This document shows, piece by piece, positions 34,858 through 44,866 of a stretch of DNA of 64,000 nt. A program made the translations under genes and the position numbers. Position 1 is the stretch's first letter; the number at the start of each line of letters is the position of its first letter. This DNA is from Pseudomonadota bacterium. Its GTDB lineage: Bacteria; Pseudomonadota; Gammaproteobacteria; Burkholderiales; Burkholderiaceae_C. Where the stretch lies: contig JAIUPQ010000009.1 in assembly GCA_020161145.1 (NCBI GenBank), forward strand, positions 37,781-101,780, written 5' to 3'. A model generated the notes under the pieces. It saw only the letters and a program-made list of their open reading frames with translations, did not search any database and was not told where the DNA came from.

Positions 34858-35547
34858 ATGTACGTCGGTCACTTTGCCATCGGCCTCGCGCTCAAAGCCC
34901 GGTTTCCCAAGACCCCTACGCTGCCGCTGCTGCTGGGTGTCGGGTTTCTGGACATCCTGGACGGTCTGTTCATTGTGTTGGGCTGGAACCTGGTCACGCC
35001 CAACCTGAACGCCGGCCCCTACCTGTTCTTCGACCTGACCTTCATCGACTGGGACCACTCGCTGGCGGCGGCGTTGCTGTGGTCGCTGGTCTGGGGCGCG
35101 CTGTTCATCAGGGACAAGCGGGGCGCCCTGCTGGCTTTCGTCGCAGCCTTCTCGCACATCGTGGCCGACTGGCCCCTGCACAACCACGATCTGGCGCTAT
35201 TCCCCTATGCCGACACGCACCTTGGCCTTGGGGGCTGGGGCAGGCTGGGCACGTTGTCGTGGGTGCTTGAAGGGCTGTTCGCGGCGGTGCTTGCCGCCTA
35301 CGCCGCCAGGCGGGCGGCGCAGCAGGGGCAGCGCTGGATCTGGCCCTGCGTGCTGCTGCTGGTGCTGTTCGCCAACCTTTCGCCCTGGCTGTCGCCCATG
35401 AAACTGGTGGCCACCTGGGGAGAGCCCGCCGCGCATCTGACGCATGGGGTGCTCGTGACCTTGGGTTTCCTGCTCCCGGGTCTGATGCTGACGGTGCTCA
35501 TCGACCGCGCCGCGCGCGCCCCGGCCCCGGCACGCGCTCAGGGCTGA
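34858..35547 (+). CDS. hypothetical polytopic inner-membrane protein
   Basis: About 7 hydrophobic segments with conserved-looking His/Asp residues (HFAIG, DILDG, HIVADWPLH). The family is uncertain. It is divergent from the Crp-family gene. Confidence 0.5.
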   Translation: MYVGHFAIGLALKARFPKTPTLPLLLGVGFLDILDGLFIVLGWNLVTPNLNAGPYLFFDLTFIDWDHSLAAALLWSLVWGALFIRDKRGALLAFVAAFSHIVADWPLHNHDLALFPYADTHLGLGGWGRLGTLSWVLEGLFAAVLAAYAARRAAQQGQRWIWPCVLLLVLFANLSPWLSPMKLVATWGEPAAHLTHGVLVTLGFLLPGLMLTVLIDRAARAPAPARAQG

Positions 35548-36905
35548 CGCAGGCCGTGGCGCTCCAGCATCCGGTAGGCCGTGCGCTCGGAAACGCCCAA
35601 GACCTCGGCCACCAGGCGGCGGTTGCCGCCATGGCGCTCCAGCAGCAAGGTCAGGTAGAGCCGCTCGATGTCGTCCAACGTGGGCTCATGGCCTTGCCAC
35701 AGCGTCGTCAGCGCGGCCGCCATGGGGTGGGCCGACGGCGGGCTGGTCGCGGGCGGCGCCAGCACCGGCAGGTGGCACGGCTCGATCCGCGGGCTGGCGC
35801 GGGCCAGCAGCACGGCGCGCTCGATCACGTTGCGCAGCTCGCGCACATTGCCAGGCCAGTCGTAGGCCAGCAGGCTGCGCATGGCCTCGGGCGTCACGGT
35901 GTGCGGCACGGGGCGACGGCTGGCGCGGGCAATGAAGTGATCAACCAGCAGCGGGACGTCTTCGGGGCGCTGGCGCAAGGGCGGCACCGGGATGGTGAAG
36001 GCCGACAGCCGGTAGTAAAGATCGGCGCGAAAGCCGCCCTCCTTGACGGCGGTCGGCAGATCGCGGTTGGTGGCGGCCACCACGCGCACATCGGCGCGCA
36101 GATCGGTGGTGGCGCCCACGCGGCGAAACCGGCCCGTCTCCAGCACGCGCAGCAGCTTGGCCTGTAGTGCCGGGCCGATGTCGCCGATCTCGTCCAGAAA
36201 CAGCGTGCCACCCGCCGCCGCCTCGATCAGGCCGGGTTTGCGCCGGTCGGCGCCGGTGAAGGCGCCGCGCTCGTGGCCGAACAGCTCGCTCTCGAACAGC
36301 GTCTCTTGCAGCGTGGTGCAGTCCACCGCCACAAACGGTTCGGCATGGCGTGCGCTGGCCTTGTGCACGGCGCTGGCCACCAGTTCCTTGCCCACGCCGC
36401 TGTCGCCCGTGACCAGCACCGTCATCGGCGTATCGGCAACGGCGTCGATCAGCTCGCGCACCTGACCCATGGCGGGGCTCTCGCCCAGCAGGTCGGGGGT
36501 GCGGCGGGCGCTGCTGCGGGCCTCGCCGACGGCGTGGGCGGCACGCAACCGCCCGCCCACCAGCGCGCGGCGGATGACCAGCTCCAGCTCATCGAGGTTG
36601 ACCGGTTTGACCAGGTAGTCGGCCGCGCCCAGCCGCATGGCCTGCACGGCGTGGTCGATGGAGCCGTAGGCGGTCAACATGACGGTGGGCCGGTCGGCGG
36701 CGAGTTCGGCCAACGGCCCCAGGTCCTGCGAGTCGGGCAGGTTCAAGTCCAGCAGCACCAGGTCGGGGGCGTGGCTGTCGAGCTTGGCGCGGGCCTCGGC
36801 CCAGGTGTAGGCCCCGGCCATCTCGTAGCCGGCCTGGCGCAGCGCGCGCTGAAGCATGTGGTTGAGCACCACGTCGTCCTCGACCACCAGAATGCTGGCG
36901 CTCAT
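35538..36905 (-). CDS. sigma-54-dependent response regulator (NtrC family: REC - AAA+ - HTH)
   Basis: REC domain (ILVVEDD...[11 protein letters not shown]), AAA+ domain with Walker A (GDSGVGKE), the sigma-54 contact loop GAFTGA, and a C-terminal Fis-type HTH ([17 protein letters not shown]). Confidence 0.92.
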
Positions 36906-38788
36906 GACCCGTCGGCGCGGGCGGCATCCGCGTCGGGCAGGGTGACGGTGAAGCGGCTGCCTTGCCCCGGCGTGCTGGTCACCGCGATGTGGCCGCCGCG
37001 GCCCTCGACCAGGGATTTGCAGATGGCCAGCCCCATGCCCGTGCCGCGCAGGCCGTCGGCGCGGCGGCTGTAGAACGGCAGGAAGATCAGGGCCATCTGC
37101 TCGGGGTCGATGCCGCAGCCGCTGTCCTGCACGGCCAGCTGCAGCGTGGTGTCGTCGGCGCGGCGGACGTCGATGGCCAGCGTGCCGCCCCCGCGCATGG
37201 CGTGCAACGCGTTGTGCACCAGATTGAGCAGCACCTGGCGCAGCTCGCCCTCGTCGGCCAGCACGCGCCGATCCGGCGCGGCCTGCACCCGCAGCGCCAC
37301 GCCGGCCTGGCGAATCTCTTCGCCCAGCAAGGCGGTCACATCGTCGATGGCGGCGCGCACGCTCACCGGCTGCGCCGGCTGGGCCGACGGCTGCGACAGG
37401 CGCAGCAGGCGTTGGGTGATGTCAACGCAGCGATCGATCTGCGCATCGACCAGGTGCAGGTATTCGGCCAGCTCGGTCGCCGGCATGGCGCCGCTTTGCA
37501 GGCCGCGCAGGGCCGATTGCAGCGCCAGGCGGATCGAGGCCAGCGGGTTGTGGATCTCGTGCGCCACGCCGTTGGCCAGCAGGCCCACGGCCGCCAGGCG
37601 CTGCTCTTGCGAGAAGCGCACCTGCTCGGCCAGCGGCCGGATGATTTCCACCACCTGCATGCTCCCGTCGGGCGCACGCAGCGGTGCGGCATGGATGTCC
37701 ACGTCCACGCGGCTGCCATCGGCGCGGGTGAAGGCCATCACCGTGCGGGTGGGGACGCCGCTGGCTTCGCAGGTGCGCAGCGGGCAGTGCACCAGCGTCT
37801 GCGGACAGGGCTCGTCCAGGGCGCGGCTGATGCGGTGGCAGGGCTGGTTCTGGATGGCCGCCAGCGGCTGGCCCATCAACCGCGCATAGGCGGTGTTGGC
37901 GGTGACGATGCGGTGGTCGGCACCCAGCAGCAGCATGGGGTCGGGCGCGGCGTCCAGCAGCGACTGCAGGAACGCGCGCTGGGCAGCCAGTGCGTCCATC
38001 TGGCCGTGCAGCTGTCTGGCCATGCGATCCACGCCCTGGCCGAGCTGGGCCAGCTCGTCGCGGCCGGTCAGGCCCGAGCGGGCGGCCAGGTCGCCGCCGG
38101 CTATGCGCCGGACTTGCTCGGCCAGCCGGGCCACCGGCCGCAGCACATCGCGCTGCAGCGCCCAGACCATGCCCAAGGCCAGCGCCACCAGCGCGGTCAG
38201 CGCGGCCGGCAGCAGCCATAGGCTGGCCCGTTCAATGGCCTCTCGCTCGGCGGCCATGGGCGCGAAGTCCAGCACCAGTACGCCGTTGATCGGCCGCGCG
38301 GCCACGCTGCCGTGGCAGCCCTGGCAGCGCGCCTGGTTGCGCACCGGGTAGGCCACGCGCAGGGCCCGCGTGGCGCCCTCCTGCTGCCAGCTCAGCGCGG
38401 GGGGTGAGAGCGGGCCGCAATGGGTGCCCAGACACAGGCCGGCAAGCGCGCCCGTTTCGGTCTGGCCCAGGCGCCGGGTGTCCGAGGCAAAGCGCACCTC
38501 GCCGGCCGGATCGAGCAGGGCCGCGCCGCTCATGCCGTTCATGCCGCCGACCTGGTCCAGCAGCTGCGCCAGACCCTCCAGGTCGCGCCGCAGCATGGCG
38601 TGGTGCAGGCTGGCTTCGAAGAGCCCGGCCAGGCGCAGCGATGCGCGCTCGTGCTCGGCGCGCATCGCGCGCTGGCCCACCCAGGCCCACAGCGACAGCA
38701 GCAGCACCACGGCCGCCGCAAACGCCAACAGCAGGCGTGGGGCGATGCGGCGGATCAAGGTGGTGGCCATGAACGCTGACCCTAACAC
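36902..38788 (-). CDS. sensor histidine kinase with a periplasmic CXXCH (haem c) domain, HAMP, a Cys-rich PAS domain, HisKA and HATPase
   Basis: TM1 ([18 protein letters not shown]), a periplasmic domain containing CQGCH (DNA 38312-38326), TM2, HAMP, a PAS domain with [25 protein letters not shown], an H-box ([13 protein letters not shown]), and N and G boxes. The stop overlaps the response-regulator start. An alternative start (MATTL) lies at 38770. Confidence 0.9.
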
Positions 38789-38816: not shown

Positions 38817-39500
38817 TCACGCGGCCGGGCGGTGCAGGGCCTGCACCGCGTGCAGCGTCAACATGGCCAGCGCGGCATAGAGCAGGGTGCCCGCGCGGCG
38901 GTGCACGCGCTCGGCAAACCGGGGCAGCCAGCGCAGCAGATGCTCGGATGCGAACTGACGCGCCGCCTCGGGCTGACCCAGGGCCAGCGCGTGAGCGCAG
39001 AAGGCCAACTCATGGCTGAGGTGGTCGTCGGGCATGGTGCGCCAGTCGATCACCACCATGCCGTGCTGGCGGTAGATGGTGCGCACATCGAAGGTGGGGG
39101 CCTGCAGCATCAGGTTGTCGTCATCCAGCCAGACCGATTCGTATGGTGAGGCGCGCAGCGCATGGGTCAGGTAGATGCCGGCGTAGTCGGCGGCCAGTTC
39201 GGCGTCAAGCTGGCGTCGCTCGCTGGCCGGGGTGTGGCCCAGCGCCGTCAGTGCAGCGTCCATGGCGACGACGGCGTCGTCGGCGGCGGTGAGCAAGGCC
39301 AGCCCCTGCGGGAAGCCGTTGCGGTGCAATGCCAGCCAGGTGGCGCTGTCGCGTTCGGCGGCGTGCAGCCAGGCCAGCGCGCGCAGGTCTTGCGCCGCCA
39401 GCTGCTCGGCGGGCGTGGCGGCACGCGCCCGGCGCGCAAGCGGCATGGCGACGGGGGCCACCGTGGGGGCGGCGTTCATGGGGTGGCCCGGCGCATTCAT
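38817..39500 (-). CDS. TorD/DmsD-family redox-enzyme maturation chaperone
   Basis: ATG at 39500 overlaps the stop of the FeS subunit (ATGA). ...LAADYAGIYL...SPYESVWLD...PDDHLSHELAFCAHL is TorD-like. It occupies the usual position after the reductase subunits. Confidence 0.8.
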   Translation of the reverse strand: MNAPGHPMNAAPTVAPVAMPLARRARAATPAEQLAAQDLRALAWLHAAERDSATWLALHRNGFPQGLALLTAADDAVVAMDAALTALGHTPASERRQLDAELAADYAGIYLTHALRASPYESVWLDDDNLMLQAPTFDVRTIYRQHGMVVIDWRTMPDDHLSHELAFCAHALALGQPEAARQFASEHLLRWLPRFAERVHRRAGTLLYAALAMLTLHAVQALHRPAA

Positions 39501-40207
39501 TCGACCCGCCCCTTGGGATGGACGACGAAGACGATGGACGGGTGGGTGAGCTCGGGGTCGGCCAGGTCTTTGACGCGGCCGGCCACCTGATCGTGTGGCC
39601 CCACCGCCAGGGTCGCGTGGGTGCCGGCGCGCAACTGATCGATGGGGCCGATGTCCAGCACGCGCATCATGCAGGCCTGCACGCAGTACGGCTTGCGGCC
39701 GGCCTCCAGCTCGTCGATGCACATATTGCATTTCTTGACCAGGTTGTCGCTGGGGTCGTACTGCGGCGCGCCGTAAGGGCAGGCCGCTTCGCAGCGGCGG
39801 CAGCCGATGCACAGCGTGGAGTCGATGTCCACCACGCCGTTGTCGGCCCGCTTCCAGATGGCGCCCGTGGGGCAGGTGGGCAGGCAGGCGGGCTCGGCGC
39901 AGTGGTTGCACGCCATGTTGACCTTGTACGCCCAGACTTCAGGAAAGCTGCCGCCTTCGTGGTACATGACGCGCCGAAAGCGCGGGCCGGGAGCCAGGCC
40001 GTTCTTGTCCTTGCAGGCGATCTCGCAGGCGCGGCAGCCGATGCAGTCCACGTTGTTGTGCACGAAGCCGAACTGCTGGGCCGGTTTGACGGGCTCGTAG
40101 GTCTGGGCGTCGCGCCGCGCCTGGGCTTCGGCCACCTTGGCCTTGGCGGCCGGCTTGAGCTTGTTGATGACGGGCTTGGTGGGGTTTGATCTGGGCTGCT
40201 GGCTCAT
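39497..40207 (-). CDS. DmsB-type 4x[4Fe-4S] electron-transfer subunit
   Basis: Four ferredoxin Cys groups: CIGCRACEIAC, CNHCAEPACLPTCP, CIGCRRCEAACP and CNMC...CVQAC. A Lys/Ala-rich N-terminal extension of about 45 aa precedes the first cluster. Confidence 0.92.
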   Translation of the reverse strand: MSQQPRSNPTKPVINKLKPAAKAKVAEAQARRDAQTYEPVKPAQQFGFVHNNVDCIGCRACEIACKDKNGLAPGPRFRRVMYHEGGSFPEVWAYKVNMACNHCAEPACLPTCPTGAIWKRADNGVVDIDSTLCIGCRRCEAACPYGAPQYDPSDNLVKKCNMCIDELEAGRKPYCVQACMMRVLDIGPIDQLRAGTHATLAVGPHDQVAGRVKDLADPELTHPSIVFVVHPKGRVE

Positions 40208-40210
40208 CGC

Positions 40211-42817
40211 TCAATCTCCTCTGCGGAACACCGACGAGCGGGCGGTGGCCAATTGATCCCAGCCGGGCCGGTGCGCGAGCGCGGTCTTGCGGATGCCCAC
40301 CAAAATGGTGTTGTAGGCAAACGCGCCGGCGGGGCTGGGCGCGTCCAGCGTCAGAAAGTCGGGGTTGCCTGCGCGGTCTATGCCTTGGGCGTCCCGGTCC
40401 ATCCAGGCCCCCTCATGAAGCACGGCCACCCCGGGCAGTACCCGCTCGGTGACGTACACGGGCACGATGCAGGCGCCGCGATCGTTGTAGACCTCCACCG
40501 TGTCGCCCGTGATCAGGCCCAGCCGCCGGGCGTCGCCAGCGTTGATCGTCACCTCCTGGCTGCAGGTCTCGCGCAGCACGCCGACGTTGTGATAGATCGA
40601 ATGCGTGCGCTCGCGGGGGTGGGGCGTGATCAGGTGGAAGGGGTACTGCCGGGTCAGCGGATGGTTGAGCGACTCGAACGGCTCGATCCACTTGGGTATG
40701 GCCGGAATGGGCTGGCCGTATTGCGTGCGCGTCCAGTCGCGGATGTTGGCCAGCTGCGTGGACATGATTTCGATCTTGCCCGAGGGGGTCTGGAACGGTC
40801 GCCCTCGTTCGATCTGGTCCTGGAAGGCCACGTGCGGGCGGGCGAGCTTGAACTTGTAGATGCCGTGCTGCTTGAACTGTGCCCAGCTCATCTGCACGTG
40901 CTGGTGTTCCTGCACGCGGTGCCACCAGTCGGTGAGGTAGGCCTCGTCCACCGCGTCGGGGTCGTTGAAATAGGTGCGGCTTGCGCGCGGGTTGTAGCGC
41001 TGGCCAAAGCCGGCCAGGTTCTGCGGATCGAGCTGTTCGAGCCGATAGGCCAGTTCGGTGAAGACCTGGAAGTCGGTCTTGCTCTCGCCCAGCGGCTCGA
41101 TCACCTTGGGGCGGTGGATGTAGTAGTGGCCTTTGTACCAGGGCAGGGCCACGTCATGGCGCTCGAAGTGGGTGCAGATGGGCAGCAGCACATCGGCCCA
41201 GATGCCGCTGGGGGTGATGGTGGCGTCCATGCACACCACCAGCTCCAGCCGCTTGATGGCCGCGATCTCCTTGTTGATGTTGGTCAGCTGGTTGAACCAG
41301 TCGCTGCCCTGCCAGAAGATGCCTTTGATGTTGGGGATGACGCCGTCGAGCTGATCCTGCCGCGGCCACAGGCCGATCTCCTCGCGCCGGACGTCGGGGT
41401 AGTTCAGCACGCAGTGCGCCCAGCGGTCGCTCTTGATGGAGGCGAACCAGACGTTGGCGAACTCGTCGTACGGGTAGGCCACGGCCTCGGCGTGCCAGGC
41501 CTTGCCCACGCCCTCGGCGCAGCCACCCAGCTTGCCGATGTTGCCCGTCATCGCCTGCAGGGCGGCGGCCATGCGGTTGTACTGCTCGCCGTAGGCGGCG
41601 CGGCCTGGCGCCCAGCTGGCCTTGAGTGCGGCCGGCTTGGTCTGGGCGTACAGCTGGGCCAGCTTGCGGATGTCGGCCGCCCTGACGCCGCAGATGGGTT
41701 CGGCCCATTCGGGCGTCTTGGGCGTCTTGTCGTATTTGCCGAGGATGTAGTCCTTGAAGTTCTCGCGCCCGGCGTACTGCGGGGGCAGTGTGCCGGCGTC
41801 CATGCCCAGCGTGAAGCGGTTGATGAAGTCCTGGTCTTGCAGGCCCTGCGTGAAGATGTGATGGGCCATGGCCGCCATCATGGCGGCGTCGGTTCCGGGC
41901 TTGATGGGAATCCACCAGGCGTCGTAGACGGCGGCGGAATCCGTGTATTGCGGATCGACCAGCACGAACTTGCAGCCGCGCTGCTTGGCCATGCGCATGT
42001 AGTAGAACGTGTTGCCGCCGTGGAAGGTGTAGGCCGGATTCCAGCCCCACATGATGATGAGCTGGGAGTGGGCAAACGCATCGTCCTCGTTGCCGTCCTC
42101 GATGGTGCCGAAGGTCATGCGGCTGGAGAAGGTCGTGCCCTGGTAGCTGGGCACGCTCCACGAGCTGGTGCGGCAGCCGAACATGCCCATGAAGCGGCCC
42201 AGCAGGCCTTCGATCTGGTCGCTTTTGTGCAGCACGCCGTAGCTGGCGCCGGCATAGCTTTGATCGACCAGCGCCGTCGGGCCATAGGTCTGCTTGAGCT
42301 GCGTCATCTTGCGGGCGACGTAGTCCAGTGCTTCGTCCCAGCTGGCACGGCGGAACTTGCCCGCACCGCGCTCGCCGACGCGGATCATCGGGTACAGCAG
42401 CCGCTCGGGCGAGTACACGCGCGAGCGGTACGAGCGCCCGCGCAGGCAGGCGCGCAACTGGGGCTCCTCGAACGTGTCCTTGCCGAAGGCGCCGCCCTCC
42501 TGGTAGCGGCCGTCGTCGGTCGAGAGTCGCACGATGACGTCGCCCTTCTTGTGCGCCACCAGCACGTGGCGCGAGCCGCAGTTGTGGGCGCACGAGGTGA
42601 CCACCGTGGTCAGTTGGTCGTCGCTGCTGTAGGGCTCGTAGGCAAACGCCGTGGCCTTCTTCGGAAAGCCCGCCAGGGCCACCAGGCCCGTGGCGCCGAT
42701 GAGGGTGAGAAAGTCGCGCCGGCTGGTGGGCAGTGCGGCCTGGGCCACCGTGAAGGCGGCCAGCGAGGCGCCCGGCAGGGGGGTGGCGGGCGGCGTGGTC
42801 AGGGTGCCCGTGGTCAT
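40211..42817 (-). CDS. Tat-exported molybdopterin oxidoreductase catalytic subunit, DmsA/YnfE-like (DMSO reductase family)
   Basis: Twin-arginine signal (TSRRDFLTLIGATG). By hand alignment to my memory of E. coli DmsA, the long block ACLRGRSYRSRVYSPERLLYPMIRVGERGAGKFRRASWDEALDYV is closely similar. The N-terminal cluster motif reads CAHNCGSRH. The start overlaps the cytochrome stop. Confidence 0.93.
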   Translation of the reverse strand: MTTGTLTTPPATPLPGASLAAFTVAQAALPTSRRDFLTLIGATGLVALAGFPKKATAFAYEPYSSDDQLTTVVTSCAHNCGSRHVLVAHKKGDVIVRLSTDDGRYQEGGAFGKDTFEEPQLRACLRGRSYRSRVYSPERLLYPMIRVGERGAGKFRRASWDEALDYVARKMTQLKQTYGPTALVDQSYAGASYGVLHKSDQIEGLLGRFMGMFGCRTSSWSVPSYQGTTFSSRMTFGTIEDGNEDDAFAHSQLIIMWGWNPAYTFHGGNTFYYMRMAKQRGCKFVLVDPQYTDSAAVYDAWWIPIKPGTDAAMMAAMAHHIFTQGLQDQDFINRFTLGMDAGTLPPQYAGRENFKDYILGKYDKTPKTPEWAEPICGVRAADIRKLAQLYAQTKPAALKASWAPGRAAYGEQYNRMAAALQAMTGNIGKLGGCAEGVGKAWHAEAVAYPYDEFANVWFASIKSDRWAHCVLNYPDVRREEIGLWPRQDQLDGVIPNIKGIFWQGSDWFNQLTNINKEIAAIKRLELVVCMDATITPSGIWADVLLPICTHFERHDVALPWYKGHYYIHRPKVIEPLGESKTDFQVFTELAYRLEQLDPQNLAGFGQRYNPRASRTYFNDPDAVDEAYLTDWWHRVQEHQHVQMSWAQFKQHGIYKFKLARPHVAFQDQIERGRPFQTPSGKIEIMSTQLANIRDWTRTQYGQPIPAIPKWIEPFESLNHPLTRQYPFHLITPHPRERTHSIYHNVGVLRETCSQEVTINAGDARRLGLITGDTVEVYNDRGACIVPVYVTERVLPGVAVLHEGAWMDRDAQGIDRAGNPDFLTLDAPSPAGAFAYNTILVGIRKTALAHRPGWDQLATARSSVFRRGD

Positions 42818-43647
42818 TGCGGGGCTCCTTGCGAGGTGGGGTTCAGGGCGTCGCTCAGGAAGCGCAGTTCGGAGGCAGTCGGCCGACCTTTGGCCCAGTC
42901 GGGCACTTCATCGGCCATGCCTGGCCAGGCGTGGCGGGCGTAGGGGTAGCTGGTTCGGTACCAGGCGCGGCCACCGTGGCAGCCGAAGCACACGTCGCCC
43001 CCCGTGCCGGGCTGGGCGCCGGCTGCCTCGATGGCCTTGGCATTGAGGTAGTTGACCGCGTGGCGCGTGGTGCGAATGGCCGCATGGCACAGCAGGCAGT
43101 TGTTCTGGAACGCGGCCTTGCTCTCGCGCCAGGGGCTGGGCAGGCCCATGATGGCGTGATTCATCTGGCCATGGCATTTGAGGCAGGTCTCGGTGGGCAC
43201 CACCGTCTTGCGCAGCGTGAAGCCGCCCAGGCGCTGCGAGGTGGCCGATGACAGCGGGGTTTCGTCGCGCGGATCGTTGCCCTGGTGGCAGGTGGTGCAG
43301 CGCATGGTCATCAATTGCCTGGCCATGGGGGTCTGCAGGTGGCGACGATGGAAGGTGTCCTGCGCCCCCTCGTAGGTGCTGGTCTCCTGGTACCAGGCCT
43401 TGGCGTCGGCCGCTTTGACGCCGGCCGGTGACTGCGGCCGCACCGAGGGTTTGAGCACCTCGGCGTGACAGGCCAGGCACTGCGCATCGGTGGCGCGCTC
43501 GATGGCCGGTTGGAAATGGATGGGGTCGTAGCGCGCGCGCTGGTAGTCGGGCTCGGTCGTCTGCGCGCTGCCCGTGAGCAGCACCAGCGCCAAGGCCGCC
43601 AGCCAGTGCCCTGCGCCGTGACGGCGCGAGTGCGGAGAGGCATTCAT
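42814..43647 (-). CDS. pentahaem c-type cytochrome (membrane-anchored or periplasmic)
   Basis: Five CXXCH motifs (CLACH, CTTCH, CLKCH, CLLCH, CFGCH) follow an N-terminal signal or anchor (HWLAALALVLLTGSAQ). The ATG at 43647 is preferred. An upstream in-frame GTG at 43710 cannot be excluded, and neither start has a clear SD. Confidence 0.85.
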   Translation of the reverse strand: MNASPHSRRHGAGHWLAALALVLLTGSAQTTEPDYQRARYDPIHFQPAIERATDAQCLACHAEVLKPSVRPQSPAGVKAADAKAWYQETSTYEGAQDTFHRRHLQTPMARQLMTMRCTTCHQGNDPRDETPLSSATSQRLGGFTLRKTVVPTETCLKCHGQMNHAIMGLPSPWRESKAAFQNNCLLCHAAIRTTRHAVNYLNAKAIEAAGAQPGTGGDVCFGCHGGRAWYRTSYPYARHAWPGMADEVPDWAKGRPTASELRFLSDALNPTSQGAPQ

Positions 43648-43659
43648 GGATCGGTCGCG

Positions 43660-43694
43660 AAAAAAAGGCGCCAGGCAGGCGAGCCCGCCCGGCG
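43660..43694 (-). terminator. intrinsic-terminator-like hairpin plus U7 inside the operon (possible attenuator or 3'-stabiliser)
   Basis: On the minus-strand RNA, an 11-bp stem pairs CGCCGGGCGGG (43694-43684) with CCUGCCUGGCG (43679-43669), comprising 9 Watson-Crick and 2 G-U pairs. The loop is CUCG, then CC, then U7 (43666-43660). It lies 47 nt after the lipoprotein stop and 12 nt before the cytochrome ATG. Confidence 0.5.
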
Positions 43695-43740: not shown

Positions 43741-44409
43741 TTACTTCTTGGCGGGGGCGGGCGGCCTGGCAGCCTGGCTCCACTGGGTGCAGACCCAGCC
43801 GTCGCCAGCCATGCCGGACATGCCGGACATGCCGGACATGCCACCCATGCCGGACATCCCGCCCATGCCGCCCATGCCGGACATCCCACCCATGCCCGAC
43901 ATGCCCGACATGCCGCGCTGTCCGCCATGGCTCCATTGGGTGCAGGCCCAGCCATCGTTGCCGGCCATGCCCGACATGCCGGACATACCTCCCATGCCGG
44001 ACATACCTCCCATACCGGACATGCCTCCCATACCGGACATGCCTCCCATACCGGACATGCCTCCCATACCGGACATACCGCCCATGCCGGACATACCGCC
44101 CATACCGGACATACCGCCCATACCGGACATGCCACCCATACCGGACATGCCGCCCATACCGGACATGCCGCTCATACCAGACATGCCGCTCATACCAGAC
44201 ATGCCGCTCATACCAGACATGCCGCCCATGCCGGACATACCGCCCATACCAGACATGCCACCCATGCCCGACATACCAGTCATACCGGACATCCCATCCA
44301 TACCCGACATGCCCATCTGTCCTTGTGGATACGGCGGTGTGGCGCAGCCGGCGAGCAGGGCTGCTGCAGCGATGGCGGCCAGCGCGAAGGGGGTGCGAGT
44401 TGATTTCAT
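43741..44409 (-). CDS. methionine-rich (Met-X-Gly)n repeat lipoprotein
   Basis: A GAGGAGAG RBS lies 5-6 nt upstream of the ATG at 44409. It has a lipoprotein signal (MKSTRTPFALAAIAAAALLAGC). Then come 40 Met-X-Gly units, NDGWACTQWSHGGQRG, 12 more units, and DGWVCTQWSQAARPPAPAKK. The hand count sums to the 222-aa ORF length. Confidence 0.8.
   Translation of the reverse strand: MKSTRTPFALAAIAAAALLAGCATPPYPQGQMGMSGMDGMSGMTGMSGMGGMSGMGGMSGMGGMSGMSGMSGMSGMSGMSGMSGMGGMSGMGGMSGMGGMSGMGGMSGMGGMSGMGGMSGMGGMSGMGGMSGMGGMSGMGGMSGMSGMAGNDGWACTQWSHGGQRGMSGMSGMGGMSGMGGMGGMSGMGGMSGMSGMSGMAGDGWVCTQWSQAARPPAPAKK
43804..44316 (-). repeat. in-frame 9/18-nt tandem repeat arrays encoding the Met-X-Gly blocks
   Basis: Block 1 spans 43960-44316 and block 2 spans 43804-43911. 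The arrays include three exact tandem 18-mers ACATGCCTCCCATACCGG (44019-44072) and three exact tandem 18-mers ACATGCCGCTCATACCAG (44163-44216), both given on the plus strand. Confidence 0.9.
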
Positions 44410-44515
44410 GGTGCTCTCCTCTGGAGTGTGAATAAACGCAATTGAAGTGAAGGGGCGTGGCGCCGGCCACCTCGTCGCCCCGCCTGGCGGGTGTCGGTGG
44501 CCACCGCAGGGGGCT

Positions 44516-44824
44516 TCACGGATCGCCCAGAGGCCGATGCCAGCCTCGCAAGTCGTAGGGCCCGCTCATGCCAGGATGGAAAAACGGGGCCCACCAGGCG
44601 CCTTGCTCGGCCAGGCGCTCGACCGTGGCGGGCCAGGGCGGCACCACGCCGTGCAGGCGCTGGGCCTTGAGTTCGGGTCCGACGGGCGCCTGGGTGACCG
44701 CAGGCGCATGGGCGGGCCGCCGATCGGGCACCAGGCCGGCGACCCCGGCCTGGGCCGCAGCCGCCTGCAGCAGCAGCAAGGCGAGCCAGGTCGGACGCAG
44801 CAAGGGGGTGGCAGGCATGGGCAT
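44516..44824 (-). CDS. hypothetical small secreted protein (first gene after the sigma-54 promoter)
   Basis: ATG at 44824 lies 8 nt after a GAGGAG RBS. It has a signal peptide (MPMPATPLLRPTWLALLLLQAAAAQA). The mature part is about 76 aa and ends in WWAPFFHPGMSGPYDLRGWHRPLGDP. No family is recognised. The longer ORF-track start (44893) would swallow the promoter. Confidence 0.55.
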   Translation of the reverse strand: MPMPATPLLRPTWLALLLLQAAAAQAGVAGLVPDRRPAHAPAVTQAPVGPELKAQRLHGVVPPWPATVERLAEQGAWWAPFFHPGMSGPYDLRGWHRPLGDP

Positions 44825-44850: not shown

Positions 44851-44866
44851 TGCATCCGTCATGCCA
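44851..44866 (-). promoter_or_regulatory. sigma-54 (-24/-12) promoter
   Basis: The minus strand reads TGGCATGACGGATGCA, against the consensus TGGCACG-N4-TTGCW. It has the GG-N10-GC spacing and lies about 25 nt upstream of the small-protein ATG. A sigma-54 activator is encoded in the same locus. Confidence 0.65.

What the first reader, a model, noticed from the sequence alone, without database searches (positions are those of the whole stretch)
43741..44409. Lipoprotein made almost entirely of Met-X-Gly triplets (52 units), arranged in two blocks that each end in a DGW-x-CTQWS cap
Seen in sequence:
- After a lipobox signal (LLAGC), the mature protein has 40 consecutive M-[S/G/D/T/A]-G triplets, then NDGWACTQWSHGGQRG, then 12 more triplets, then DGWVCTQWSQAARPPAPAKK.
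- My hand count of 31+119+16+36+20 equals the 222-aa ORF length.
- Met sits at every third residue, making a continuous MxxM ladder, and about a quarter of the protein is Met.
- The only non-lipobox Cys residues are the two in the duplicated W-x-C-T-Q-W-S caps.
- The gene has its own strong RBS and lies on the same strand as its neighbours. The three other frames that are open across the repeat lack any signal peptide or RBS.

Established knowledge:
- MxxM and Met-rich tracts bind Cu(I)/Ag(I), as in Ctr1, CopA/PcoA and CusF-type proteins.
- Met-rich periplasmic peptides can act as sacrificial oxidant sinks, as MrpX does in Azospira suillum.

I know of no described family with this strict triplet architecture and these caps.
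Basis: partly seen in the sequence, partly recalled or inferred. Interest (0 to 1): 0.9.

Follow-up and report, generated by a model that had tools for sequence, protein, structure and literature searches.

The report
Methionine-repeat lipoprotein paired with sulfoxide reductase
This is a real gene for a disordered envelope lipoprotein that is one-quarter methionine, it heads a widespread uncharacterised operon for a molybdenum sulfoxide-reductase-like enzyme, and it most likely acts as a rechargeable sponge for oxidants.

Summary
A 222-aa minus-strand ORF (43741-44409) has a lipobox, 51 strict Met-x-Gly triplets in two blocks, and two GW(A/V)CTQWS caps. Wobble-only codon variation, three contigs carrying the identical protein and a close relative all argue against an artefact.

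The gene sits in a conserved operon: small secreted protein, Met-rich protein, terminator, pentahaem NapC/NirT-like cytochrome c, DmsA-like Tat-exported molybdoenzyme (35% identical to E. coli DmsA, Ser ligand and active-site Tyr kept), DmsB-like subunit, TorD-type chaperone, then a sensor kinase and sigma-54 regulator.

- 59 of 75 informative related loci (Alpha-, Beta-, Gammaproteobacteria) carry a Met-rich ORF in the same position.
- In the reverse test, 24 of 26 cap-bearing Met-rich ORFs with enough flank have the operon directly downstream.

No cop/cus, msrPQ or cld genes are linked. No Pfam or NCBIfam family or paper describes it; RefSeq calls one homologue "hypothetical protein".

Best reading (about 0.5, untested): a disordered thioether sink, oxidised by reactive oxidants and re-reduced by the co-encoded quinol-fed reductase. 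That is a non-homologous analogue of MrpX-MsrPQ. Rivals are Cu(I) buffering, quenching of a reactive reductase product, and a collagen-like scaffold.

The parts
43741..44409 (-). Met-rich lipoprotein gene (222 aa). Signal peptide and lipobox at 44344-44409. Block 1 (MG plus 39 MxG) at 43960-44316. Cap 1 NDGWACTQWS at 43930-43959. Spacer HGGQRG at 43912-43929. Block 2 (12 MxG) at 43804-43911. Cap 2 DGWVCTQWS at 43777-43803. Lys-rich tail plus stop at 43741-43776.
   Evidence: AF2 predicts coil except the two cap strands. Orthologues.
44414..44421 (-). Shine-Dalgarno sequence GAGGAGAG, 4 nt before the ATG
44516..44824 (-). orf102: small secreted protein of unknown fold. Conserved C-terminal motif QGxWYxPFxxPGMxGPYDLRGxH. 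First gene of the operon here.
   Evidence: Gene call. Present in 65 of 80 related loci. Alignment. No Pfam hit. AF2 pLDDT 54.
44851..44866 (-). Candidate sigma-54 promoter TGGCATGACGGATGCA upstream of orf102. A weak match taken alone.
   Evidence: In related loci 13 of 21 strict matches lie just upstream of the operon's first gene.
43659..43694 (-). Intrinsic-terminator-like hairpin (11 bp, 9 G-C) plus T-run, between the Met-rich gene and the cytochrome gene
   Evidence: A comparable hairpin plus T-run follows the Met-rich ORF in 34 of 61 related loci.
42814..43647 (-). Pentahaem c-type cytochrome (5 CxxCH) with an N-terminal hydrophobic segment. NapC/NirT-like and NrfB-like.
   Evidence: Conserved in 80 of 80 loci.
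40211..42817 (-). Tat-exported molybdopterin subunit, DmsA/YnfE-like. Ser224 aligns with the Mo-ligand Ser of DorA. The Tyr114 equivalent is kept. The FS0 motif is C-x3-C-x3-H.
39497..40207 (-). Four-cluster [4Fe-4S] subunit, 43% identical to E. coli DmsB
38817..39500 (-). TorD/DmsD-family maturation chaperone (227 aa)
36902..38770 (-). HAMP-PAS sensor histidine kinase
   Evidence: Present in 52 of 80 loci.
35538..36905 (-). NtrC-type sigma-54-dependent response regulator
   Evidence: Present in 48 of 80 loci.

Best explanation
The gene encodes a Sec-exported, lipid-anchored, intrinsically disordered poly-thioether chain. About 120 residues of Met-x-Gly lead to a roughly 44-residue Met-x-Gly loop. 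That loop is closed by two short beta-strand caps that probably pair and disulfide-bond (Cys156-Cys207).

Proposed mechanism:
1. The exposed Met side chains, flanked by Gly and Ser, react quickly with oxidants entering the envelope (HOCl, chloramines, chlorite-derived species, peroxides, peroxynitrite). They become Met sulfoxide and so spare other envelope proteins.
2. The co-encoded periplasmic DmsAB-type molybdoenzyme reduces the sulfoxides back to Met.
3. Electrons come from the quinone pool through the NapC/NirT-like pentahaem cytochrome and the four-cluster FeS subunit. The sink is therefore catalytic and rechargeable.
4. A terminator after the Met-rich gene would let the sink be made in large excess over the enzyme.
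5. The adjacent kinase and sigma-54 activator would switch the operon on.

Shown: the gene, its architecture, predicted disorder, the near-obligate two-way gene linkage, the S-oxide-reductase-type active-site residues, and the terminator and promoter arrangement.

Inferred: that Met oxidation is the function, that this enzyme reduces the oxidised protein, the inducing signal, and outer-membrane localisation (Ala at +2, using the E. coli sorting rule).
For: (1) Linkage from the enzyme side. Among the 80 closest MoA relatives (75-83% identical; Alpha-, Beta-, Gammaproteobacteria), a same-strand Met-rich ORF lies just upstream of the cytochrome in 59 of 75 loci with enough upstream sequence.

(2) Linkage from the protein side. 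A DNA pattern for the cap GWVCTQW found 40 true cap-bearing MxG ORFs in metagenome contigs. Of 26 with at least 500 nt downstream, 24 have cyt plus MoA directly downstream. All 14 truncated ones have orf102 directly upstream. P0003, found through the Met-rich query alone, sits in the same operon.

(3) Enzyme type. The catalytic subunit has a Tat signal. It is 35% identical to DmsA over its full length and its best solved relatives are DorA and H. influenzae MtsZ. The Mo-ligand Ser and the DorA Tyr114 equivalent are conserved. The FeS subunit is 43% identical to DmsB.

(4) Precedent. MrpX-YedY/MsrP is a Met-rich periplasmic sink recycled by a Mo reductase (PMC4436054). DorA reduces protein-bound MetO in unfolded beta-casein at about 4.5-9 x 10^4 M-1 s-1 (PMC7402097).

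(5) Family traits fit bulk chemistry rather than a fixed fold:
- Composition is G 34, M 24, S 15, K 7.5%; His is 0.3%.
- Lengths run from about 60 to 340 aa.
- Repeat number differs between close relatives (about 29 versus 12 triplets in block 2).
- AF2 gives mean pLDDT 46.6.

(6) A terminator follows the Met-rich gene in the window and in 34 of 61 loci.

(7) No other conserved neighbours exist, so the only candidate partner is this reductase.
Against: - There is no experimental datum for any member.
- The enzyme clade is uncharacterised. It falls below every NCBIfam cutoff (598 bits against 777 for dmsA_ynfE). Its close paralogues include the selenate reductases YnfE/F, and DmsA-type enzymes are linked to bromate reduction, so its substrate may be a small molecule.
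- 16 of 75 loci keep the enzyme without a Met-rich gene, so the enzyme has a function independent of it.
- The 2026 review states that Dor- and Dms-type enzymes convert only small-molecule S-/N-oxides. That partly conflicts with the DorA result.
- No oxidant-sensing regulator of a known type (SigF/NrsF, HprSR) is present.
- MxG runs also occur on unrelated periplasmic proteins: c-type cytochromes, DsrE, OmpA-like and a CusB-like adaptor. The module is therefore not specific to this enzyme.
Confidence: 0.5

Rival explanations
1. Product quencher. The molybdoenzyme is a respiratory or detoxifying reductase for an oxyanion such as chlorate, bromate, iodate or selenate. The Met-rich protein is co-expressed to mop up the reactive product (chlorite/hypochlorite, HOBr, HOI) at its source. 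This is the logic of MrpX in perchlorate reducers. Re-reduction could be done by another enzyme or not at all.
For: - DmsA-type enzymes are implicated in bromate reduction, and YnfE/F-type selenate reductases are the nearest named families.
- The enzyme persists without the Met-rich gene in 16 of 75 loci.
- Carriers include Dechloromonas, Azonexus and Sedimenticola.
- The MrpX precedent comes from perchlorate reducers.
Against: - No cld or other halogen-detoxifying gene recurs in the 80 loci.
- Many carriers (Zoogloea, Accumulibacter, Competibacter, Hyphomicrobium) are not known oxyhalide respirers (own knowledge).
- A non-recycled 52-Met protein would be an expensive consumable.
- The active site keeps the Ser and Tyr typical of S-oxide reductases. 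That does not exclude oxyanions.
Confidence: 0.15
2. Soft-metal buffer. The MxxM ladder binds Cu(I) or Ag(I) through thioether-only sites of about three Met each. The cap Trp may add cation-pi contacts. The protein would sequester metal under the outer membrane.
For: - Met spacing of i, i+3 dominates, as in known Cu(I) 'Mets' motifs of Ctr1, CopA/PcoA and the CusF/CusB systems (own knowledge).
- One MxG-run protein in the homology search is a CusB-like RND adaptor. Others carry DUF305 or a metal-resistance domain.
Against: - No cop, cus, pco or sil genes are in the 64-kb window or among recurrent neighbours in 80 loci.
- His is 0.3% and Asp 0.8% in the family.
- The linkage is to a molybdenum S-oxide-reductase-like operon, which has no known copper requirement.
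- The regulator is a sigma-54 two-component pair rather than a CusRS/CopRS type.
Confidence: 0.12
3. Structural element. The strict Gly-X-Y periodicity forms a collagen-like triple helix or an elastomeric tether. The cap Cys would act as interchain staples. The chain would scaffold or position the reductase complex at the outer membrane, or form a periplasmic gel.
For: - The Pfam Collagen hit is above its gathering score (34.4 against 27.2 bits).
- The median longest uninterrupted Gly-X-Y run is 26 triplets in 44 complete orthologues, and GQK or GME units stay in register.
- Cys come in pairs within conserved caps.
Against: - The repeats contain no Pro and, in the window protein, almost no charged residues. 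GMG triplets should destabilise a triple helix (own knowledge of host-guest propensities).
- Some orthologues (L010, L050, L070) have runs of only 4-6 triplets, broken by 4-residue units.
- NCBIfam collagen-like adhesin scores are far below cutoff (45 against 325).
- The AF2 monomer is coil, although a monomer model cannot show a trimer.
- Triplet-unit DNA slippage alone would preserve the register.
Confidence: 0.08
4. Not a real protein. The ORF is an assembly artefact or a shadow of a gene on the other strand.
For: Three other frames are open across the repeat. Several MAG assemblies break or frameshift in this repeat.
Against: - The wobble-only variation fits this frame.
- The signal peptide, SD sequence, stop codon and Lys-rich tail are conserved in about 100 loci.
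- The identical protein occurs on three contigs.
- A finished plasmid of a cultured Rhodobacter carries a homologue annotated as a CDS.
Confidence: 0.01

Closest known systems
MrpX with YedY1Z1 (MsrPQ) of Azospira suillum PS (PMC4436054)
   Same: Both are signal-peptide-bearing, Met-rich (20-26% Met) periplasmic proteins encoded next to a molybdenum-dependent periplasmic reductase fed from the membrane. The proposed logic is the same: sacrificial Met oxidation followed by enzymatic recycling.
   Different: - MrpX is small and 44% charged. The window protein is about 4% charged and built of strict Met-x-Gly triplets with Trp/Cys caps and a lipid anchor.
- The reductase here is a DMSO-reductase-family DmsAB type with a pentahaem cytochrome c, not the sulfite-oxidase-family MsrP with haem-b MsrQ.
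- Regulation is by a sigma-54 two-component pair, not SigF/NrsF.
- No msrPQ is linked.
- Sequence homology to MrpX could not be tested.
DorA/DorC of Rhodobacter sphaeroides; DmsABC and MtsZ (TorZ) of Haemophilus influenzae
   Same: All are periplasmic DMSO-reductase-family S-/N-oxide reductases with a Ser Mo ligand. DorC is a pentahaem NapC/NirT-type quinol dehydrogenase. DorA reduces protein-bound MetO in unfolded protein (PMC7402097). MtsZ and DmsABC reduce MetSO and are hypochlorite-induced (PMC13488963).
   Different: - Identity is only about 35% to DmsA. The DorA Trp116 equivalent is Gly, and the third Cys of the FS0 motif is His.
- The subunit set is a hybrid: DmsA plus DmsB with a c-type cytochrome in place of DmsC.
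- None of the known systems has a dedicated Met-rich partner protein.
Thioether 'Mets' Cu(I)/Ag(I) motifs (Ctr1, CopA/PcoA, CueO and McoA Met/Gly-rich loops, CusF/CusB)
   Same: They share MxxM spacing and a Met- and Gly-rich flexible sequence in the envelope.
   Different: Those motifs are short inserts in copper proteins, usually with His or Asp, and are encoded in copper operons. Here a whole protein is the repeat, it lacks His, and it is linked to a molybdenum reductase.
Bacterial collagen-like proteins (Scl1/Scl2, Lcl; Pfam PF01391)
   Same: Long uninterrupted Gly-X-Y periodicity, and a score above the Pfam gathering threshold.
   Different: There is no Pro, few charges, no recognisable trimerisation domain, and Met occupies X. 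NCBIfam scores are far below cutoff. The register is not kept in all orthologues.
Met-rich low-complexity domains switched by oxidation (yeast ataxin-2/Pbp1, cited in PMC7402097); Gly/Met-rich elastomer abductin (own knowledge)
   Same: These are disordered Met-rich (and, in abductin, Gly-rich) polymers whose physical state depends on Met oxidation or which behave as elastomers.
   Different: They are eukaryotic, unrelated in sequence, and have no linked reductase operon.

Membership tests
Bacterial lipoprotein (Lgt/LspA substrates) | An N-terminal signal peptide with basic n-region and hydrophobic h-region, ending in a lipobox [LVI][ASTVI][GAS]C | tested here: met
   The N-terminus is MKSTRTPFALAAIAAAALLAGC. 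The same lipobox is in the nearest relative and in L004/L005. Most other orthologues have ordinary signal peptides instead.
MrpX-type Met-rich scavenger system | An exported small protein with about 20% Met | tested here: met
   24% Met overall and 26% in the mature chain, with a signal peptide. MrpX figures are from PMC4436054.
MrpX-type Met-rich scavenger system | The remainder of the protein is mostly charged residues (44% in MrpX) | tested here: not met
   D+E+K+R is 9 of 222, about 4%. The remainder is Gly and Ser.
MrpX-type Met-rich scavenger system | Operon linkage to yedYZ/msrPQ and control by SigF/NrsF | tested here: not met
   No msrPQ or ECF sigma pair is in the window or among recurrent neighbours. 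The linked genes are a DmsAB type plus a sigma-54 two-component system.
MrpX-type Met-rich scavenger system | Sequence homology to MrpX (Dsui_0158) | not tested
MrpX-type Met-rich scavenger system | Met residues oxidised in vivo by reactive chlorine species and re-reduced | not testable with these tools
   This needs gel-shift or mass-spectrometry experiments.
Collagen triple-helix repeat (PF01391) | Uninterrupted (Gly-X-Y)n that scores above the Pfam gathering threshold | tested here: met
   34.4 bits against a cutoff of 27.2. The longest run in the window protein is 42 triplets.
Collagen triple-helix repeat (PF01391) | Pro-rich and/or charge-rich X and Y positions that stabilise a triple helix, with the register kept across orthologues | tested here: not met
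   The repeats contain no Pro. The register is broken by 4-residue units in L010, L050 and L070. Scores against the SclB and Lcl models are about 45 bits against cutoffs of 325-500.
DmsABC DMSO reductase | A Tat-exported DmsA with a Ser Mo ligand, plus a four-cluster DmsB | tested here: met
   The SRRDFL Tat motif is present and Ser224 aligns with DorA Ser147. Identity is 35% to DmsA and 43% to DmsB.
DmsABC DMSO reductase | A score above the curated family cutoff (TIGR02166 dmsA_ynfE) | tested here: not met
   598 bits against a cutoff of 777.7.
DmsABC DMSO reductase | A DmsC/NrfD-type haem-free membrane anchor | tested here: not met
   No such gene is present. A pentahaem c-type cytochrome takes the adjacent position in 80 of 80 loci.
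Met-motif copper proteins (Cop/Pco/Cus) | MxxM or MxxxM motifs | tested here: met
   49 of 52 Met-Met spacings in the mature chain are i+3.
Met-motif copper proteins (Cop/Pco/Cus) | Linkage to copper resistance or homeostasis genes; accompanying His or Asp ligands | tested here: not met
   No cop, cus or pco genes are present. The window protein has one His, and His is 0.3% in the family.

The most novel reading that the evidence does not exclude
The protein is a redox-switchable envelope material. It would be a lipid-anchored poly-thioether brush, or even a Met-lined collagen-like trimer stapled by the cap cysteines. Reversible Met oxidation would change its physical state between hydrophobic and collapsed and hydrophilic and expanded. 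A dedicated respiratory-type molybdoenzyme and a sigma-54 two-component system would serve as its reset and control circuit. The enzyme's sole physiological client would be this one polymer, making the pair a protein-based rechargeable redox buffer wired to the quinone pool.
Probability: 0.1. Interest if true: 0.85.

Novelty: new variant of a known kind. Interest (0 to 1): 0.68.

Why it matters
If the model is right, a second and evolutionarily independent solution to periplasmic oxidant scavenging exists. Neither part is homologous to MrpX or MsrPQ. The sink is a Met-x-Gly polymer and the recycler is a DmsAB-type enzyme with a c-type cytochrome.

- **Spread.** The pattern scan confirmed 578 relatives of the catalytic subunit among species-representative genomes. 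Carriers include key wastewater genera such as Accumulibacter, Competibacter, Dechloromonas, Azonexus and Zoogloea. One copy is on a conjugative plasmid.
- **Enzyme function.** It would assign a physiological client to a large uncharacterised clade of the DMSO reductase family. It would also address whether Dms/Dor-type enzymes act on protein-bound sulfoxides in vivo.
- **Practical interest.** It bears on tolerance of treatment-plant bacteria to chlorination.
- **Annotation.** These genes are currently called 'hypothetical' or would be mislabelled collagen-like. Their repeats break many MAG assemblies.

Tried and rejected
- **Exhaustive phmmer search** of the Met-rich protein against 1.84 billion representatives. 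It returned 14,793 hits at E up to 1e-3. The top 149 are giant Gly-X-Y or SGYSGY repeat proteins with a median of 0.9% Met, so they are periodicity matches and say nothing about family size.
- **Word-indexed homologue search**. It was dominated by composition. It showed that MxG runs occur on many unrelated periplasmic proteins, but only P0003 and P0005 share the cap.
- **Names for the molybdoenzyme clade**. Only generic labels came back.
- **orf102.** No Pfam family, only 4 indexed homologues, and an AF2 model at pLDDT 54 that is too poor for fold search.
- **NapC/NirT cytochromes with MxG tails as a Rosetta-stone link to the enzyme**. They sit by soxYZ/fccAB instead, so they do not support a specific link.
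- **Sigma-54 promoter in the window.** The match is unexceptional by count, 18 against 32 expected at 2 mismatches. It is retained only because of its position and the enrichment in related loci.
- **Literature.** Seven full-text searches, including literal repeat strings, found nothing on this family.
- **Energy-conserving electron-acceptor store.** Rejected by inference: about 50 sulfoxides per molecule is negligible against respiratory flux.
- **Thioether dehydrogenase direction.** Considered and rejected as physiologically implausible. The NapC/NirT-type cytochrome also fits quinol-to-reductase flow.
Full report
**1. The observation**

The ORF is real and lies on the minus strand at 43741-44409. 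It is 222 aa, starts at ATG and is preceded by GAGGAGAG.

Residues 1-22 form a lipoprotein signal peptide ending in LLAGC. The rest follows in order:
- a truncated MG unit,
- 39 strict Met-x-Gly triplets (residues 34-150),
- NDGWACTQWS,
- HGGQRG,
- 12 more triplets (167-202),
- DGWVCTQWS,
- QAARPPAPAKK.

There are 53 Met (24%), 76 Gly and 33 Ser. The three Cys are the lipobox Cys plus one per cap. The strict triplet count is 51, or 52 with the truncated unit.

At the DNA level the unit is 18 nt at only 78-80% identity. Within the 51 triplets ATG and GG never vary, while wobble positions do, and Ser is encoded by both TCN and AGC. That is the signature of selection on this reading frame. It is not what a shadow frame or a collapsed perfect repeat would show.

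The identical protein is on three contigs on record; the one shown is a JGI metagenome contig. The nearest relative has a catalytic subunit 89% identical and comes from two ENA metagenomes. It keeps the lipobox and both caps (NTGWVCTQWSRGGQTG and DGWVCTQWSQAKPATRK) but has about 29 rather than 12 triplets in block 2. Repeat number therefore drifts while the caps are conserved.

**2. The surroundings**

The gene is part of a same-strand cluster. In order:
- **orf102** (44516-44824): a small secreted protein with no family.
- **The Met-rich gene.**
- **A terminator-like hairpin** with a T-run (43659-43694).
- **A pentahaem c-type cytochrome** (42814-43647). Its NapC/NirT N-terminal-region Pfam hit is above threshold, and it is also NrfB-like.
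- **An 868-aa Tat-exported molybdopterin subunit.**
- **A four-cluster ferredoxin subunit.**
- **A TorD/DmsD chaperone.**
- **A HAMP-PAS histidine kinase.**
- **An NtrC-type sigma-54 activator.**

The catalytic subunit is 35% identical to E. coli DmsA over its full length, and the FeS subunit is 43% identical to DmsB. The best solved relatives are Rhodobacter DorA and H. influenzae MtsZ. Ser224 aligns with the Mo-ligand Ser147 of DorA, and the Tyr114 equivalent is conserved. The Trp116 equivalent is Gly, and the third Cys of the FS0 motif is His.

The subunit scores below every curated NCBIfam cutoff, 598 against 777.7 for dmsA_ynfE. Public sources name its relatives only generically. It is thus an uncharacterised sister clade of DmsA/YnfE. 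Its subunit set is a hybrid, with DmsA and DmsB joined to a TorC/DorC-like cytochrome instead of DmsC.

The rest of the 64-kb window is housekeeping: LeuRS, DapB, HprK, CorA, MnmA, PGK, L13/S9 and TyrRS. It has no copper, msrPQ or cld genes.

**3. Conservation of the linkage**

*From the enzyme side.* A scan of species-representative genomes with the catalytic subunit confirmed 578 relatives. The 80 best are 75-83% identical. They span three classes:
- Betaproteobacteria: Sphaerotilus, Ideonella, Ottowia, Zoogloea, Dechloromonas, Azonexus, Accumulibacter, Sulfuricella.
- Gammaproteobacteria: Competibacter, Sedimenticola.
- Alphaproteobacteria: Hyphomicrobium, Xanthobacteraceae, Thermopetrobacter, Rhodobiaceae.

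In 59 of 75 loci with enough upstream sequence, a same-strand Met-rich ORF lies just upstream of the cytochrome gene. Counts for the other components among the 80 loci are cytochrome 80, FeS 79, chaperone 71, orf102 65, kinase 52 and regulator 48. Nothing else recurs except a NapF-like polyferredoxin in 21 loci.

*From the protein side.* P0003 was retrieved purely by similarity to the Met-rich protein, and it sits in the same operon. A DNA pattern for GWVCTQW in metagenome contigs gave 80 held loci. Of these, 40 are true cap-bearing MxG ORFs; the rest are chance matches, about as many as the pattern's information content predicts.
- Of 26 true hits with at least 500 nt downstream, 24 have the cytochrome and molybdoenzyme directly downstream.
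- All 14 truncated hits have orf102 directly upstream.
- The clear exception, L106, is in a plasmid-like context and carries a His-rich tail.

A finished conjugative plasmid of the cultured Rhodobacter xanthinilyticus LPB0142 carries the whole operon. Its Met-rich protein is annotated 'hypothetical protein'. That offers a route for horizontal spread and a tractable model organism.

**4. What defines the family**

Across about 45 complete orthologues the pooled mature-chain composition is G 34, M 24, S 15, K 7.5, Q 6.4 and E 3%. His is 0.3% and Cys 0.6%. Met-Met spacing is overwhelmingly i+3. Lengths run from about 60 to 340 aa, and the C-terminus is nearly always Lys-rich.

The commonest betaproteobacterial form is signal peptide, then (GMSGMSGMEGQK)n, a Lys-rich spacer, a short second block and EGKK. 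It has no Cys or Trp.

The caps have the consensus G-W-V-C-T-Q-W-S/T. They usually come two per protein, so mature Cys number 0 or 2. They mark a subgroup found in all three classes. A lipobox is rarer still. The Met-x-Gly ladder, the two-block layout and the basic tail are the family constants.

AlphaFold2 (single sequence) gives mean pLDDT 46.6 and coil throughout. The only exceptions are two short strands exactly at the caps (154-159 and 204-209, pLDDT about 64-67). As the only strands in the model, they presumably pair with each other. With the paired Cys, this suggests a disulfide-clasped loop enclosing block 2. That is an inference, because the coordinates were not inspectable.

**5. Expression architecture**

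A GC-rich hairpin plus T-run follows the Met-rich gene in the window and in 34 of 61 related loci. This fits much higher expression of the Met-rich protein than of the enzyme.

The window's sigma-54-like site (TGGCAT-N5-ATGCA at 44851-44866) is weak taken alone. In the related loci, however, 13 of 21 strict TGGCAY-N5-NTGCN matches in 1.12 Mb (both strands) lie just upstream of the operon's first gene. This fits control by the adjacent sigma-54 activator.

**6. Mechanism**

The best-supported reading is a rechargeable thioether sink. Exposed Met in a flexible Gly/Ser context scavenge oxidants and become sulfoxides. The co-encoded periplasmic S-oxide-reductase-type enzyme then regenerates them, drawing electrons from quinol through the pentahaem cytochrome and the FeS subunit.

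Two published results supply the concept and its feasibility:
- MrpX-YedY in Azospira shows that a Met-rich periplasmic protein can be a recycled sink (PMC4436054).
- DorA reduces MetO in unfolded beta-casein at about 4.5-9 x 10^4 M-1 s-1 (PMC7402097).

Variable length, predicted disorder, absence of His, the terminator and the near-obligate linkage all fit this reading.

Several points count against it:
- No member has been studied.
- The enzyme persists without the Met-rich gene in 16 of 75 loci.
- A 2026 review regards Dms/Dor enzymes as small-molecule reductases.
- No known oxidant sensor is present.
- MxG runs also decorate unrelated periplasmic proteins.

I put this reading at about 0.5. 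The rivals are:
- a quencher for a reactive product of an oxyanion reductase (0.15),
- a Cu(I)/Ag(I) buffer (0.12),
- a collagen-like or elastomeric scaffold (0.08),
- an artefact (0.01).

The collagen idea deserves mention because Pfam's Collagen model is passed and Gly-X-Y runs are long, with a median of 26 triplets. Against it, the repeats lack Pro and some orthologues break the register.

**7. Comparison and novelty**

In function this would be a non-homologous analogue of MrpX-MsrPQ. It fails MrpX membership on composition, on the linked reductase and on regulation. It is not a canonical DmsABC, being below cutoff and lacking DmsC. It is not a copper-operon protein. The collagen match rests on periodicity only.

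No Pfam or NCBIfam family or paper in the searchable library describes the Met-x-Gly proteins or their operon.

I rate it a new variant of a known kind, with an undescribed protein family and an uncharacterised enzyme clade. Interest is 0.68. The sequence is striking, the system is widespread and ecologically relevant, and the hypothesis is directly testable in cultured carriers.

Noticed in passing
window 44516-44824 (-); L176 4215-4571: orf102 is a roughly 100-aa secreted protein with an invariant C-terminal motif QGxWYxPFxxPGMxGPYDLRGxH. It is present in 65 of 80 related loci and persists even where the Met-rich gene is absent. It has no Pfam family and its AF2 confidence is low. It may be an extra subunit, a co-sensor or a chaperone of the reductase.
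   Followed up: partly
window 43659-43694 (-): A strong intrinsic-terminator-like hairpin lies between the Met-rich gene and the cytochrome gene. Comparable hairpins follow the Met-rich ORF in 34 of 61 related loci. This suggests attenuated read-through into the enzyme genes.
   Followed up: yes
window 40211-42817 (-), residues 76-84 and 124: The FS0 cluster motif of the catalytic subunit reads C-A-H-N-C-G-S-R-H, where E. coli DmsA has C-T-V-N-C-G-S-R-C. The third ligand is therefore His, or the cluster is altered.
   Followed up: partly
window 38817-39911 (-): The mechanical 364-aa ORF for the chaperone over-extends into the FeS gene in another frame. The real genes are a 236-aa FeS subunit (39497-40207) and a 227-aa TorD-like chaperone (38817-39500).
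   Followed up: yes
L048 4406-5173 and 5207-6058 (Ca. Competibacter denitrificans); L053 4938-5354 and 6503-6820: Some genomes carry two Met-rich genes upstream of the operon. In L048 they are in tandem. In L053 the second is a lipoprotein directly abutting the molybdoenzyme gene.
   Followed up: no
L106 3016-3510 (-): A cap-bearing Met-rich protein with a His/Lys-rich tail (EHRKHRKHHHKHHR) lies in a plasmid-like context (coupling-protein-like and Hsp20-like ORFs) without the reductase operon. It is the only clear exception to the linkage, and it may be a metal-binding offshoot.
   Followed up: partly
L082 8001-8873; proteins P0009, P0019, P0062, P0004, P0007, P0001, P0046: Met-x-Gly runs also occur as tails or linkers on other exported proteins: NapC/NirT cytochromes (next to soxYZ and flavocytochrome c sulfide dehydrogenase), mono-haem cytochromes c, DsrE-like proteins, an OmpA-like protein and a CusB-like adaptor. 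The module is a general periplasmic building block in environmental proteobacteria.
   Followed up: partly
L002, L005, L027, L044, L057: Several MAG assemblies have N-runs or frameshifts inside the Met-rich repeat. The gene is therefore often missed or mis-called in draft genomes.
   Followed up: no
L176 (Rhodobacter xanthinilyticus plasmid pEJ01) 5466-6938; L084 3291-4595: The operon sits on a conjugative plasmid in a cultured Rhodobacter, where the cytochrome carries an extra N-terminal mono-haem domain (490 aa). In another locus it lies next to relaxase genes. This fits horizontal transfer, as does the 75-83% identity of the catalytic subunit across three proteobacterial classes.
   Followed up: partly
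L047, L054, L063; proteins P0008, P0010, P0017: An alternative spacer motif, YF(K/R)ITP(D/E)GQI(Y/F)FYPA, interrupts the Met-x-Gly blocks in gammaproteobacterial operon members. It also appears in stand-alone Met-rich proteins from the homology search.
   Followed up: no
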